64,000 nucleotides of DNA from the NCBI RefSeq assembly GCF_009914755.1, contig NC_060934.1. One strand, 5' to 3'. Origin of the DNA: the human T2T-CHM13v2.0 reference genome, Homo sapiens. Numbering within the stretch: position 1 is the stretch's first letter; the number at the start of each line of letters is the position of its first letter. Position numbers and translations under genes: made by a program. Below, in pieces: positions 41,801 to 48,101 of this stretch. The notes under the pieces are model-generated. The model was not told the origin of the DNA. It was given only the letters and a program-made list of their open reading frames with translations, and searched no databases.

Positions 41801-44124
41801 GTCCGGGTCAGATGTCCCTCCCATGTGCTCCCAAAAGGCCCTGTTCTTATTCCTGGTACAACACATGTCAAACGCCCTGTAATCACCAATCTGATCCCTT
41901 GACCATCCTCTCCAACAGGGTCTGTTTCCTGAAGGGGTGTCTGGTGTCCTAATCAATGGGACATCCCTGTCACCTAATCACAGTAACTCACACAGAGGAG
42001 GTGCTCCCAAAAGATCAATGGGAAGAAGGGAAGGAGGGAAGGGGAAAGTAGCATGGGTCTGAACACATAGGAGGAGGCAGTTGCACACCCAGGAGGGTCT
42101 GAGTGGGCAGCTTAGGGGAGCCTCCCAGGCTAGGAGGGTGCAACACTCTTACTGGCCTGGATCTCGAGAAGGAAGCCTCCTGGATCAATGACTAGAGTAG
42201 GTTTCATGGCAGCTGTGATTTCCTATCACGGTGAATAGCTAAGTCGTGTTAGATGTTCACTCATACACATCCCCAGAGGCCTGGAGGAGAAATGCTTGAT
42301 CTCCTAACATAATCCAAAAAGTAATCTTCTAGACACTAGTATTTCAGGGGAAAGCACCTTCTTCCTCTTCTTCCTCATCTTTTAGTCCATACGATGAAAG
42401 CATAATGGATTCTGTAATTTATCCACCTGGCAGGACTTTTTATATTTTTTTGGCCCATAGGCCATAAATCAACCTGGGTCTACTTACCTACAGCAAGTCT
42501 AGTTTGCAGGGGAAGGTGGCGTTCAGATGCAGCCTTCCCTGCAGTCATTCTGGGGGAGAAGCCTCACTATGCTGACAGCTCCTGCCTGGGACAATGCATT
42601 CCATGTGGTATAATTAAACACATACCCTGCAGATCCAGGAAAGGTGAGTCCGGTGGGTTAAAGGAATCCATGCAGTGGGTAAGACATCAAATACCATGCT
42701 TGTTATCATTTTCTTCAACATAGTGGAATTGGTCCACTGACAATTTATACAAAATGCATGTCCTAAAATGAGAAGACAAGATGTATTTCAAACATACCTA
42801 AATTAAGTAACACATCTTTATAAGTTGTCTAGCTCTACACATAGACTACAGGTATCATTGCCTGGGAAACTCTTCCCTTATAGATTATGGAAATAAATGG
42901 ACTGCACAGATTTTTTCAGTTGAGGTTTAGTCAAGAATTCTCATCTAGGTATTTTGAAGACTAAGATGTTAATACAGGTCATTAGAAGCTTAGGCAATCC
43001 TTAGAAGCCTGGGTGTAAAGGACCAGGGCAAGTCCTGAAGGGTGGAGTTCTCCTTGGTCTCAGCCTCCTGCAGGACCCAAGTGAATCCTCTCAGGAGGCT
43101 GCCCAAGGTGCTTGGAGCTTCCATGTACAGCTCGGGGCCCACAGTCCTGAAGTAGGGTCTTTCCTGACAACGTCTCCTGGCAGAGGAAAAGCCCCATGAC
43201 CTCTCCTGTAGGGGAATTAGATGGTTTCTCTTTCTCTTTGGCCATCCAAGTTTTATAGGAAGCATTCTTGTTTCTTGTGGGATTCAACTGAAGTTTAAGG
43301 GACTTGAGCAGATATATAGTTTCCAGGCTGTATCCACTTTGGTTTGGGGTGAGGGAGCTCAGGTGGGAAGGGAGACATATCTGGAAGGTGCCTGAAATAT
43401 ATAAATGGTTTTTAATTTATGTATCCACAGTAGAAAATTTATTTTCATCGTGATTGTAAATCTTTATTTTTTTTCCCTTCAAATCACAAACAGGATTGTT
43501 AAGGCTTATTATGGTCAGAAGCTGGCCCCAAGTTTTACTAGACTTACAGACCTCTTAAAAACTTCAGGCTTACCACCCATTCCCAGGGCAGGAAGGTTAT
43601 TGCACCTCTTCTTTCTACAGATTCTGCATTGCTGCAATGAACAAGAGCATCATTTCGTAGAGGTCCAGCACATGTTAAAGCAAATAAAATGTAAAGCAAC
43701 ACTTTATAATGGCATACACGCTAAATTATAACTGTTTTCCTTTTTTGCCTCCCATCCTTAATGTGAAGGGTTTTCATTAGATGACAATGGAGCTGAGTGT
43801 TGCAAGATAAGTGGGGGTTGGTCACATGGAATTTGGGGAAGGCAGGGGATCCTACCATCAAGAGGAGTTACATACTCAAATCATGGAGACTTTCAAGAGT
43901 CTTGGGGAACCACAGGTAGATCTGCATGGCTGGATCCTCGGATAGGAACGGAAAGCATGAAGGATGAGATGATGACAGAGGCAAAAGCTAGACTCTGAGT
44001 TTTAGATTTTTATCCTAAACACAAAGGGGTCAAGTAAAAATAAGGCACAGTTTTTTGTATTGAAGGAGCCATGTGAAGAGCAGAAGTTTAATTTTATGAT
44101 GTCCAAATTATCTTTTTTACTTTC

Positions 44125-44588
44125 TTTTTTAGATCAAAATAGGGGTCTATTTTGATTACCACTGTTATTTTATCTCTATTTGATTTTTTATTTTTATTTT
44201 TATTTTTCTAATTTCATTGTAAATTTTTAATTAAACCCAAATATTCTAGGGGAAAGAGGCAAGATAGAAATAGTCTAACTTGGGCATAAATTTTAGAGTC
44301 ATATTCTCTTGCCGAGAAAGGAAACTAGCTCTCTTACAATGATTGTTTAATTTCGGACTTCACTACTTTATGAGGATGCCCAAATTATGGGCTTTAAAAA
44401 TATATATCCAAACAGGGGTTCAGAAAGAATAACTAATTGTGGACAAATGATTCCACCATAAGTTTGTCCAGTGACAGGGTCTATATTATTTTCTATATAT
44501 CAAATTCTACAACTGGTTCTTAAACCTATTGTACATAACCTAAGTTAGAATATTAGGTATTAGTTGATAAGACATTTTATCATCTATG
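44125..44588 (-). other. Non-L1 AT-rich 3' tail fused to the truncated L1
   Basis: No resemblance to L1 ORF2/3'UTR; three tandem AATAAA (minus strand, 44187-44204), a 10-bp hairpin at 44133-44156, then an A-tract. Confidence 0.55.
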
Positions 44589-45878
44589 AAATTTACCCAT
44601 TTCTTCTAGATTTTCTAGTTTATTTGCATAGCGGTGTTTGTAGTATTCTCTGATGGTAGTTTGTATTTCTGTGGGATCAGTGGTGATATCCCCTTTATCA
44701 TTTTTTATTTTGTCTATTTGATTCTTCTCTCTTTTCTTCTTTATTAGTCTTGCTAGCGGTCTATCAATTTTGTTGATCCTTTCAAAAAACCAGCTCCTGG
44801 ATTCATTAATTTTTTGAAGGGTTTTTTGTATCTCTATTTCCTTCAGTTCTGCTCTGATTTTAGTTATTTCTTGCCTTCTGCTAGCTTTTGAATGTGTTTG
44901 CTCTTGCTTTTCTAGTTCCTTTAATTGTGATTTTACGGTGTCAATTTTGGATCTTTCCTGCTTTTTCTTGTGGGCATTTAGTGCTATAAATTTCCCTCTA
45001 CAAACTGCTTTGAATGTGTCCCAGAGATTCTGGTGTGTTGTGTCTTTGTTCTCTTTGGTTTCAAAGAACATCTTTATTTGTGTCTTCATTTCGTTATGTA
45101 CCCAGTAGTCATTCAGGAGCAGGTTGTTCAGTTTCCATGTAGTTGAGCGGTTTTGAGTGAGTTTCTTAATCCTGAGTTCTAGTTTGATTGCACTGTGGTC
45201 TGAGATACAGTTTGTTATAATTTCTGTTGTTTTACATTTGCTGAGGAGAACTTTACTTCCAACTATATGGTCAATTTTGGAATAGGTGTGGTGTGGTGCT
45301 GAAAAAATGTATATTCTGTTGATTTGGGGTGGAAAGTTCTGTAGATGTCTATTAGGTCTGCTTGGTGCAGAGCTGAGTTCAATTCCTGGGTATTCATGTT
45401 AACGATCTGTCTCGTTGATCTGTCTAATGTTGACAGTGGGGTGTTAAAGTCTCCCATTATTACTGTGTGGGAGTCTAAGTCTCTTTGTAGGTCACTCAGG
45501 ACTTCCTTCATGAATCTGGTTGCTCCTGTATTGGTTGCACATATATTTAGGATAGTTAGCTCTTGTTGAATTGATCCCTTTACCATTATGTAATGGCCTT
45601 CTTTGTCTTTTTTGATCTTTGTTGGTTTAAAGTCTGTTTAATAAGAGACTAGGTTTGCAACCCCTGCCTTTTTTTGTTTTCCATTTGCTTGGTAGATCTT
45701 CCTCCATCCTTTTATTTTGAGCCTATGTGTGTCTCTGCATGTGAGAAGTGTTTCCTGAATACAGCACACTGATGGGTCTTGACTCTATCCGATTTGCCAG
45801 TCTGTGTCTTTTAATTGGAGCATCTAGTCCATTTACATTTAAAGTTAATATTGTTATGTGTGAATTTGATCCTGTCAT
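44580..45878 (-). pseudogene. L1 ORF2 fragment (endonuclease + linker, no RT), frameshifted
   Basis: ATG at 45878; MVKGSIQQ..GDFNTPLS; ...ENLEEMGKF then non-L1 HR-stop. Confidence 0.9.
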
Positions 45879-46970: not shown

Positions 46971-47998
46971 CTTTGTGGTTTTATCTACTTTTGGTCTTTG
47001 ATGATGGTGATGTACAGATGGTTTTTGGTGTGGATGTCCTTTCTGTTTGTTAGTTTTCCTTCTAACAGACAGGACCCTCAGCTGCAGGTCTGTTGGAGTT
47101 TAGTAGAGGTCCACTCCAGACCCTGTTTGCCTGGGTATCAGCAGCGGTGGCTGCAGAACAGCGGATTTTCCTGAACCACGAATGCTGCTGTCTGATTGTT
47201 CCTCTGGAAGTCTTGTCTCAGAGGAGTACCCGGCCGTGTGAGGTGTCAGTCTGCCCCTACTGGGGGGTGCCTCCCAGTTACGCTCCTCAGGGGTCAGGGG
47301 TCAGGGACCCACTTGAGGAGGCAGTCTGCCCGTTCTCAGATCTCCAGCTGCATGCTGGGAGAACCACTGCTCTCTTCAAAGCTGTCAGACAGGGACATTT
47401 AAGTCTGCAGAGGTTACTGCTGTCTTTTTGTTTGTTTGTGCCCTGCCCCCAGAGGTGGAGCCTACAGAGGCAGGCAGGCCTCCTTGAGCTGCAGTGGGCT
47501 CCACCCTGTTCGAGCTTCCCAGCTGCTTTGTTTACCTAAGCAAGCTTGAGAAATGGTGGGCGCCCCTCCCCCAGCCTCGCTGCCACCTTGCAGTTTGATC
47601 TCAGACTGCTGTGCTAGCAATCAGCAAGACTCCATGGGCATAGGTCCCTCCGAGCCAGGTGCGGGATACAATCTCCTGGTGTGCCATTTTTTAAGCCCGT
47701 CAGAAAAGCGCAGTATTCGGGTGGGAGTGACCCGATTTTCCAGGTGCCGTCTGTCACCCCTTTCTTTGACTAGGAAAGGGAACTCCCTGATCCCTTGCAC
47801 TTCCCGAGTAAGGCAATGCCTCGCCCTCCTTCGGCTCACGCAGGGTGCGCTGCACCCACTGTCATGCGCCCACTGTCTGGCACTCCCTAGTGAGATGAAC
47901 CCGGTACCTCAGATGGAAATGCAGAAATCACCTGTCTTGTGCGTTGCTCACGCTGGGAGCTGTAGACCAGATCTGTTCCTATTCGGCCATCTTAGCTC
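46971..47998 (-). promoter_or_regulatory. L1 5'UTR (internal sense and antisense promoters, YY1 site)
   Basis: Near-complete 5'UTR; GGCCATCTT YY1 motif at ~47985-47993; partly CpG-decayed. Confidence 0.75.
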
Positions 47999-48101
47999 AG
48001 GTGAGGTATCTCTTTCATTTCTTGTATGGCCACTAAAGACAAAGTCGGTATCATTTTACTTAGACCTTGTGCACATGCAAAATGCTCTTTGCATCTGTTG
48101 A
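47553..48101 (+). CDS. L1 antisense ORF0, extended (182 aa), putative
   Basis: N-terminus MVGAPPPASLPPCSLISDCCASNQ matches primate L1 ORF0; expression unknown. Confidence 0.4.
   Translation: MVGAPPPASLPPCSLISDCCASNQQDSMGIGPSEPGAGYNLLVCHFLSPSEKRSIRVGVTRFSRCRLSPLSLTRKGNSLIPCTSRVRQCLALLRLTQGALHPLSCAHCLALPSEMNPVPQMEMQKSPVLCVAHAGSCRPDLFLFGHLSSGEVSLSFLVWPLKTKSVSFYLDLVHMQNALCIC

What the first reader, a model, noticed from the sequence alone, without database searches (positions are those of the whole stretch)
44109..48023. Candidate half-L1 chimeric retroelement: L1PA3/4 5' half fused to a foreign polyadenylated tail
Seen: the L1 is intact at its 5' end but stops inside ORF2 ([11 protein letters not shown]-stop, ~44589), before the RT domain, the opposite of the usual 5' truncation. 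It continues into ~460 bp of non-L1 DNA with tandem AATAAA, a hairpin and a short A-tract. The unit is bracketed by degenerate direct repeats (tatcttttttactttc 44109-44124 / tatctctttcatttc 48009-48023), and the flanks read like one interrupted old L1M fragment. Known: RT-less L1 derivatives (HAL1-type) can be mobilised in trans by ORF2p. Inference: L1 half plus tail retrotransposed as one RNA and may belong to a dispersed non-autonomous ORF1+EN family.
Basis: partly seen in the sequence, partly recalled or inferred. Interest (0 to 1): 0.8.

Follow-up and report, generated by a model that had tools for sequence, protein, structure and literature searches.

The report
Broken L1 patched with chr2 DNA
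This is a single old L1 copy that lost its back half and is joined to a 525-base piece copied from chromosome 2, which looks like a one-off DNA-break repair scar and not a new family of mobile elements.

Summary
The structure is real. An L1PA element on the minus strand runs from near its natural 5' end (47998) to ORF2 codon about 431 (44590), before the RT domain, and then continues into non-L1 DNA.

- The tail (44068-44592) is a 525-bp copy of a segment on chromosome 2 (18 substitutions, 3 indels). These two are the only full copies in this T2T genome.
- The chr2 copy has no L1 next to it. An old L1 fragment runs unbroken across the tail's 3' boundary there, so chr2 is the donor.
- There is no poly(A) tail and no TSD at the true ends. 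L1 and tail meet at a 3-nt overlap (ATT), with no splice signals.
- No other locus shares the junction.
- Tail divergence (about 1.7% per lineage) matches the L1's private divergence (1.8-2.9%).

Best reading: a solitary break-repair product. It arose either as one endonuclease-independent ("non-classical") L1 insertion with captured extra nucleotides (about 0.45), or as a normal insertion later deleted and patched (about 0.40). An outgroup empty site would decide between them. This is a known kind of event and of low interest.

The parts
44593..47998 (-). 5' 3.4 kb of an L1PA element. It comprises the 5' UTR (about 46971-47998, 1028 nt), ORF1 (46970 down to about 45942, now split into 101-aa and 186-aa open frames) and ORF2 codons 1 to about 431 (from about 45878 down to 44590, in at least 3 frames).
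   Evidence: Single blastn HSP to the full-length relative L019. Pfam Transposase_22 at E 2.4e-58 and Tnp_22_dsRBD at E 1.1e-44. tblastn against a relative's ORFs. ORF list.
44590..44592 (-). 3-nt overlap (ATT in L1 sense) shared by the L1 sequence and the chr2 donor at the join.
   Evidence: L1 hits to the junction 96-mer stop at query position 51, which is window 44590. chr2 homology starts at 44592. A three-way print of the junction shows L1 relatives continuing with CC and chr2 preceded by AAC, so there are no GT/AG splice signals.
44068..44592 (-). 525-bp patch copied from chr2 (G000:C2:88883788-88884326).
   Evidence: 94.6% identity over 539 columns: 525 aligned pairs, 18 substitutions and 3 indels of 12, 1 and 1 bp. 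These are the only two full copies in the genome.
44080..44118 (-). Piece of an ancient L1 ORF2 3' region carried inside the patch.
   Evidence: Local alignment to a young L1 (L018 nt 5398-5439). In chr2 the same alignment continues 100 bp past the patch boundary, but in chr10 it stops. Seven short genome hits match only this end of the chr2 segment.
44133..44156 (.). It is identical in chr2.
44184..44208 (-). Three overlapping AATAAA motifs (in L1 sense). They are templated from chr2 and lie about 115-140 nt before the patch ends, so they did not define its 3' end.
48007..48021 (.). It is not a TSD.

Best explanation
This is a solitary product of double-strand-break repair. A break in chr10 was sealed by a composite DNA copy, and I think the most likely route was a single endonuclease-independent ('non-classical') L1 insertion. 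Inferred steps: synthesis started on a template from chr2 and copied 525 nt. It then switched, at a 3-nt overlap (ATT), into the middle of an L1 RNA at ORF2 codon about 432. It ran on to within about 10 nt of the 5' end of that RNA, and the ends were joined without target-site duplication or poly(A). Shown: the anatomy, the chr2 origin and direction of copying, the lack of poly(A), TSD and splice signals, the uniqueness of the junction, and the similar age of the L1 and the patch. Inferred: that both pieces arrived in one event, and that the template of the patch was RNA. The broader statement, 'one-off break-repair scar with an inter-chromosomal templated patch, not a mobile family', I hold at about 0.85-0.9. 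The single-event version I hold at about 0.45.
For: - The patch has exactly one other copy, on chr2, with no young L1 within about 5.8 kb upstream or 1.7 kb downstream.
- chr2 is the donor. An ancient L1 alignment (L018 nt 5388-5555, score 38 against a maximum of 22 in 200 shuffles) crosses the patch's 3' boundary unbroken in chr2 and stops inside the patch in chr10.
- There is no TSD at the true ends (best 6 of 9) and no poly(A) after 44068.
- The join has a 3-nt overlap and no GT/AG.
- The ages agree. The patch has 18 substitutions in 525 bp, which is 3.4% pairwise or about 1.7% per lineage. The L1 has 43 private non-CpG substitutions in 2346 sites (1.83%) and differs from the majority of 9 relatives at 69 of 2346 sites (2.94%).
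- The missing L1 3' half is not elsewhere in the window or in the 190 kb to its left. The only long L1s there are separate older elements at 88% identity.
- There is precedent. In passages read from Sen et al. 2007 (PMC1920257), 15 of 21 non-classical L1 insertions carried 4-312 bp of extra non-L1 nucleotides. One carried 267 bp that was 94% identical to another chromosome. These insertions lack TSDs and poly(A) and are 3'-truncated.
Against: - No outgroup genome could be consulted, so co-arrival of the L1 and the patch is not shown.
- In Sen et al. 2007, 18 of 21 non-classical insertions were also 5'-truncated by 3 kb or more. This L1 reaches almost its natural 5' end, as ordinary full-length insertions do.
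- The patch (525 bp) is longer than any extra segment in that series (maximum 312 bp).
- The age agreement is loose. The Poisson range for 18 substitutions is roughly 1.0-2.7% per lineage (my own arithmetic, not a tool result), so a capture some millions of years after the L1 insertion is not excluded.
- Nothing shows that the chr2 segment is transcribed.
- The 3-nt overlap fits DNA end joining as well as it fits template switching.
Confidence: 0.45

Rival explanations
1. Two steps. A full-length L1 inserted normally by target-primed reverse transcription. Later a break or deletion removed its 3' 2.7 kb, poly(A), the downstream TSD and perhaps some flank. The gap was closed with a 525-bp patch templated from chr2 (a class 2 templated sequence insertion).
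For: - The near-complete 5' end is typical of an ordinary full-length insertion.
- Class 2 templated insertions from distant loci are described as break-repair patches, with no TSD, no poly(A) and microhomology at the joins (PMC5110952, passages read).
- The 3-nt overlap at the join fits this.
- Patch divergence is at or slightly below the L1's, which allows a later capture.
Against: - It needs a kb-scale deletion and a rare long inter-chromosomal filler at the same junction.
- The patch and the L1 are about the same age, which is not required under this model.
- No remnant of the L1 3' end, poly(A) or second TSD is left.
Confidence: 0.4
2. A chimeric RNA (L1 5' half plus a chr2-derived tail) was polyadenylated and inserted once by ORF2p in trans through ordinary TPRT, and the poly(A) and TSDs have since decayed.
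For: The tail holds three AATAAA in L1 sense. The L1 and the tail are of similar age.
Against: - The copied segment runs about 115-140 nt past the AATAAA motifs and ends with no A-run.
- At about 2-3% divergence, a poly(A) tail and a 7-20-bp TSD should still be visible, and none is.
- There are no splice signals at the join.
- No L1 lies next to the chr2 donor that could have made such an RNA by read-through.
Confidence: 0.05
3. The L1 half plus tail is a member of a dispersed non-autonomous ORF1+EN (HAL1-like) family.
For: None beyond the anatomy of an ORF1-plus-EN stub with downstream AATAAA.
Against: - The tail has 2 full copies genome-wide, and the other copy lacks L1.
- Only 1 of 40 scored junction hits, out of 356 candidates, spans the junction, and it is the locus itself.
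- A family derived from an L1 this young would differ by only a few percent. The search detects matches at 83-89% identity.
Confidence: 0.01
4. Reverse direction. The tail is ancestral chr10 sequence next to a locally deleted L1, and the chr2 copy was derived from it.
For: Pairwise similarity alone does not give a direction.
Against: - In chr2 the tail's last about 60 bp and the following 100 bp form one continuous ancient L1 fragment, and in chr10 that alignment is cut at the tail's end.
- The copy boundary would have to coincide by chance with the L1/non-L1 junction in chr10.
Confidence: 0.03

Closest known systems
Non-classical (endonuclease-independent) L1 insertions, NCLI (Sen et al. 2007, PMC1920257; passages read)
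   Same: 3'-truncated L1 without poly(A), no TSD, and extra non-L1 nucleotides fused to the L1. In that series some extra segments matched another chromosome (267 bp at 94% identity in NCLI65). Microhomology occurs at the joins.
   Different: This L1 keeps almost its whole 5' end and 3.4 kb of sequence, whereas 18 of 21 in that series were 5'-truncated by 3 kb or more. The patch is longer (525 bp against at most 312 bp). The locus is older than their cut-off of 2% divergence.
Class 2 templated sequence insertions (Onozawa and Aplan 2016, PMC5110952; passages read)
   Same: A stretch templated from a distant locus is inserted with no TSD, no poly(A) and no use of a cryptic poly(A) signal, and it shows end-joining features.
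   Different: Here the patch abuts a truncated L1 and does not sit alone in unique DNA. Its polymorphism status is unknown.
HAL1 (half-L1) non-autonomous L1 derivatives (Kojima 2018, PMC5753468; passages read)
   Same: An L1 derivative that lacks the reverse transcriptase part.
   Different: HAL1 is a multi-copy family that encodes only ORF1p. This is a single locus that also keeps the EN part of ORF2, it has no poly(A) or TSD, and its tail is a copy of a chr2 segment.
L1 chimeric insertions made by template switching or RNA recombination (U6/L1 type; Law and Burns 2025, PMC11838501, abstract and section list seen; Buzdin's chimeric retrogenes recalled, not read)
   Same: Two unrelated templates are fused in one retro-copy. 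A switch of template in mid-synthesis is the step I propose.
   Different: By that paper's abstract and section headings, the known chimeras carry the foreign RNA 5' of the L1 and are refined by TSDs; that the L1 keeps a normal 3' end with poly(A) is recalled. Here the foreign part is 3' of the L1, the L1 3' half is absent, and there is no poly(A) or TSD.
L1 3' transduction (recalled knowledge)
   Same: Non-L1 DNA follows L1 sequence in the same orientation.
   Different: Transduction keeps the complete L1 3' end and ends in poly(A) within TSDs. None of that is present here, and no L1 sits upstream of the chr2 donor.

Membership tests
HAL1-like / trans-mobilised ORF1(+EN) family | Several dispersed copies share the same L1/non-L1 junction with different flanks | tested here: not met
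   Tail: 2 full copies, and the other has no L1. Junction 96-mer: 1 of 40 scored hits (356 candidates) crosses the junction, and that is the locus itself.
HAL1-like / trans-mobilised ORF1(+EN) family | 3' poly(A) tail and target-site duplications from TPRT | tested here: not met
No A-run after 44068. The best repeat at the true ends is 6 of 9.
HAL1-like / trans-mobilised ORF1(+EN) family | Open ORF1 | tested here: not met
   ORF1 is split into 101-aa and 186-aa frames. This says nothing about its state at the time of origin.
Non-classical L1 insertion (NCLI) | 3' truncation of 20 bp or more, with no poly(A) | tested here: met
   The L1 ends at ORF2 codon about 431. About 2.7 kb, by comparison with L019, and the poly(A) are missing.
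Non-classical L1 insertion (NCLI) | No TSD of any length | tested here: met
   Nothing of 6-20 nt reaches 75% identity at the ends, and the null expectation is similar.
Non-classical L1 insertion (NCLI) | Extra non-L1 nucleotides fused to the L1, sometimes matching another chromosome | tested here: met
   525 bp at 94.6% identity to chr2.
Non-classical L1 insertion (NCLI) | Ancestral empty site in outgroups whose edges match the whole insert, usually with a target deletion | not testable with these tools
   No primate genome other than the window's own assembly is held. Both flanks are single-copy in this genome. Indirect tests through old repeats in the flanks failed.
Non-classical L1 insertion (NCLI) | Target departs from the TTTT/A cleavage consensus | not testable with these tools
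   This needs the pre-insertion sequence.
Class 2 templated sequence insertion | Insert templated from a distant locus, with no TSD, no poly(A), and microhomology or other end-joining marks | tested here: met
   Microhomology could be read at one join only, the L1/patch join.
Spliced L1 chimera | GT after the L1 break in relatives and AG before the donor segment | tested here: not met
   L1 relatives continue with CC, and the chr2 donor is preceded by AAC.
L1 3' transduction | Complete L1 3' end followed by donor-flank DNA and poly(A) | tested here: not met
   The L1 3' half is absent. There is no young L1 beside the donor.

The most novel reading that the evidence does not exclude
The L1 half and the chr2 patch were made as one cDNA at a chromosome break. 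A reverse transcriptase began on a non-polyadenylated chr2 transcript and jumped, on 3 nt of homology, into the middle of an L1 RNA. It copied that RNA to within about 10 nt of its 5' end. This would be an unusually large, 5'-complete example of endonuclease-independent L1 repair, with the foreign template on the 3' side. That is the mirror image of the catalogued U6/L1-type chimeras.
Probability: 0.45. Interest if true: 0.35.

Novelty: new member of a known kind. Interest (0 to 1): 0.2.

Why it matters
The value is mainly as a clean-up. What looked like the founder of a young half-L1 family is a single rearranged copy, so no new mobile family should be inferred from it. It does add a well-resolved fixed example of an inter-chromosomal templated patch at an L1 breakpoint, with the donor, the direction of copying, a 3-nt join and an age all identified. 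Such loci are useful for studying how breaks were repaired in the ape germline. This one is larger and more 5'-complete than the published human series.

Tried and rejected
1. Empty site by paralogy. Both flanks (43500-44067 and 48001-48600) hit only themselves in the genome.

2. Target continuity through old repeats in the flanks.
- tblastn with ORFs from a young L1 gave only weak hits in the right flank (E 0.028 and 1.3) and nothing useful in the left flank.
- nhmmer with three L1 references gave no flank hit.
- Smith-Waterman alignment against shuffles gave z of 2.4 or less.
- The left flank has one weak paralogue, at chr2 L020 137-449 (nhmmer E 7e-4; 1.4e-3 in the larger set). Four nhmmer rounds over about 280 kb found no further copies, and the paralogue did not help to extend across the site.
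- So whether the target lost DNA remains open.

3. Segmental duplication. 10 kb of chr2 against the whole window shares only the 539-column segment plus Alu and old L1 pieces.

4. Splicing. There is no GT/AG at the join.

5. Displaced 3' half. It is not in the window or in the 190 kb to its left. The long L1 hits there are separate elements at 88% identity, one of them full-length. DNA to the right of the window was not searched.

6. A repeat spanning the donor's 5' boundary in chr2. Nothing significant was found (best E 0.17).

7. Genes at the donor. There are 23 open frames of 85 aa or more in 20 kb of chr2. Of these, 17 were scanned against Pfam and all had 0 families. I left out 6 that overlap one another in L020 1201-2084. 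I had no annotation for chr2, so transcription of the donor is unknown.

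Full report
**What is there.** On the minus strand, window 47998->44590 aligns as one block to a full-length genomic L1 (L019 nt 285-3680; 94.0% over 3416 columns).
- The copy starts about 10 nt inside that relative's 5' end.
- It has a 1028-nt 5' UTR (47998 down to the ORF1 ATG at 46970).
- ORF1 is recognisable but split. Pfam gives Transposase_22 at E 2.4e-58 and Tnp_22_dsRBD at E 1.1e-44.
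- The first about 431 codons of ORF2 are present, in at least three frames.
- The last L1 base is L019 nt 3680. With the ORF2 ATG at nt 2386, that is 2 nt into codon 432, upstream of the RT domain.
- The best genomic relatives of a 1008-bp ORF2 stretch are 95-96% identical (40 scored of 5100 candidates).
- Passages read in PMC5860796 say that L1PA3 and L1PA4 5' UTRs hold a 129-bp segment that L1PA2 and L1PA1 lack. A 1028-nt UTR would fit its presence if the L1Hs UTR is about 910 nt. That length is recalled and not tested, so 'L1PA3/4' is plausible but not verified here.

**The tail.**
- A whole-genome search with 44130-44586 found three matches: the locus itself, one copy on chr2 at 94% identity over the full query, and a 44-bp partial match.
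- Base-level alignment puts the shared segment at window 44592->44068, equal to chr2 L020 5789-6327. There are 525 aligned pairs, 18 substitutions and 3 indels of 12, 1 and 1 bp.
- The reverse search with the chr2 segment found the same two full copies. It also found 7 short hits (36-66 bp) confined to its last about 65 bp.
- Nothing else within 10 kb of the chr2 copy is shared with the 64-kb window except Alu and old L1 pieces. This is therefore not a larger duplication.
- No young L1 lies beside the chr2 copy.

**Direction of copying.** In chr2, a local alignment to a young L1 (L018 nt 5388-5555) runs through L020 6268-6427. It crosses the segment's 3' boundary (6327/6328) without a break, with score 38 against a maximum of 22 in 200 shuffles. 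In chr10 the same alignment covers only 44118->44080 and ends inside the segment. The last part of the segment is thus the start of an ancient L1 fragment that continues in chr2 but not in chr10. chr2 holds the original arrangement and chr10 holds the copy.

- The three AATAAA, the 10-nt hairpin, the A-runs and the left 'direct repeat' (44109-44124) are all present in chr2. They are templated sequence. They are not a poly(A) tail and not a TSD.
- The copied segment runs about 115-140 nt beyond the AATAAA motifs and ends ...CACATGGC with no A-run.
- I tested the true ends, allowing the left copy to end at 44062-44072 and the right copy to start at 47994-48006, for lengths of 6-20 nt. No repeat reaches 75% identity, and the best is 6 of 9.
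- A 96-nt probe across the junction gave 40 scored hits (356 candidates). Thirty-nine stop at probe position 51 (window 44590), and only the locus itself continues.
- chr2 homology begins at 44592, so L1 and patch overlap by 3 nt (ATT).
- L1 relatives continue with CC and the chr2 donor is preceded by AAC, so the join is not a splice.
- A dispersed half-L1 family is therefore contradicted in this genome.

**Age.**
- The patch differs from its donor by 3.4% (18 of 525), which is about 1.7% per lineage.
- Over 2346 non-CpG columns shared with 9 relatives, the L1 has 43 private substitutions (1.83%). It differs from the majority state of those relatives at 69 sites (2.94%). The second figure includes subfamily differences. 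Two of the 11 fetched relatives were dropped for partial coverage; a first pass with all 11 over 1095 columns also gave 1.83%.
- The two parts are thus about equally old. This fits co-arrival, but given the small count it also allows a somewhat later capture.

**Mechanism.** The features point to repair of a chromosome break and not to target-primed reverse transcription. These features are a 3'-truncated L1, no poly(A), no TSD, a microhomology join and a patch templated from another chromosome.

Two published categories fit:
- Non-classical, endonuclease-independent L1 insertions (Sen et al. 2007, PMC1920257; passages read). In that series 15 of 21 carried 4-312 bp of extra nucleotides, and one had 267 bp at 94% identity to another chromosome.
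- Class 2 templated sequence insertions (Onozawa and Aplan 2016, PMC5110952; passages read).

Two histories remain open:
- (a) One event. Synthesis on a chr2 template, a switch into L1 RNA, copying to near the RNA's 5' end, then end joining.
- (b) Two events. An ordinary full-length insertion, later deleted from ORF2 codon about 432 through its 3' end and patched.

For (a) I count the age match and the frequency of extra nucleotides in non-classical insertions. For (b) I count the nearly complete 5' end, which was unusual in that series (18 of 21 were 5'-truncated by 3 kb or more). I put (a) at about 0.45 and (b) at about 0.40. The union, 'one-off repair scar, not a mobile family', I put at about 0.85-0.9.

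**What could not be settled.**
- No other primate genome is held, and both flanks are single-copy in this genome.
- I tried to read the target's state from old repeats in the flanks. The right flank shows only weak L1-ORF2-like similarity (E 0.028 and 1.3), and the left flank shows none. The left flank has one weak paralogue elsewhere on chr2.
- The lost 3' half is not in the window or in the 190 kb to its left.
- Transcription of the donor is unknown. Of 23 open frames in 20 kb around it, 17 were scanned against Pfam and none had a match.

**Comparison and verdict.** The locus works like, and most resembles, a non-classical L1 insertion with extra nucleotides. The defining outgroup test is outstanding, so I file it as a probable new member of that known kind.
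- It is not HAL1-like. HAL1 is a non-autonomous L1 derivative that encodes only ORF1p and arose several times (PMC5753468, passages read), and it is a repeat family in Repbase.
- It is not a U6/L1-type chimera. By the abstract and section list of PMC11838501, those are defined by sequence 5' of the L1 and are refined by TSDs.
- It is not a 3' transduction.
- Interest is low. The main result is that an attractive 'new half-L1 family' reading is not supported.

Noticed in passing
window 48245-49254 (minus strand): Weak, colinear similarity to L1 ORF2. The RT region matches at 49254->48886 (tblastn E 0.028) and a C-terminal stretch at 48454->48245 (E 1.3). This may be a very old L1 fragment upstream of the young L1.
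   Followed up: partly
window 43738-44044 and L020 137-449 (chr2, opposite strand): The left flank of the insertion has one weak paralogue about 5.3 kb from the chr2 donor segment (nhmmer E 7e-4; 1.4e-3). The two are not colinear with the patch. By eye the flank resembles an old LINE2-type 3' end, which I recall but did not test. This is probably a chance pairing of two copies of an ancient repeat.
   Followed up: partly
L038 1-5722 with L037 9624-9999 (chr10, about 72 kb left of the finding, outside the window): A separate, older full-length L1 lies on the same strand (88% identical to L019 over 5817 columns). I checked it because its match began at my query's first base. It is not the missing 3' half.
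   Followed up: yes
window 46830-46865: Inside the young L1, near the start of ORF1, a short stretch reads like a local duplication (...ctcgtcaaagagaatgactcgtcaaagtcattctcc...). I did not trace it.
   Followed up: no
L020 1201-2084 (chr2): All six reading frames stay open for 180-260 codons here, which suggests a simple or low-complexity repeat. I left these frames out of the Pfam scan.
   Followed up: no
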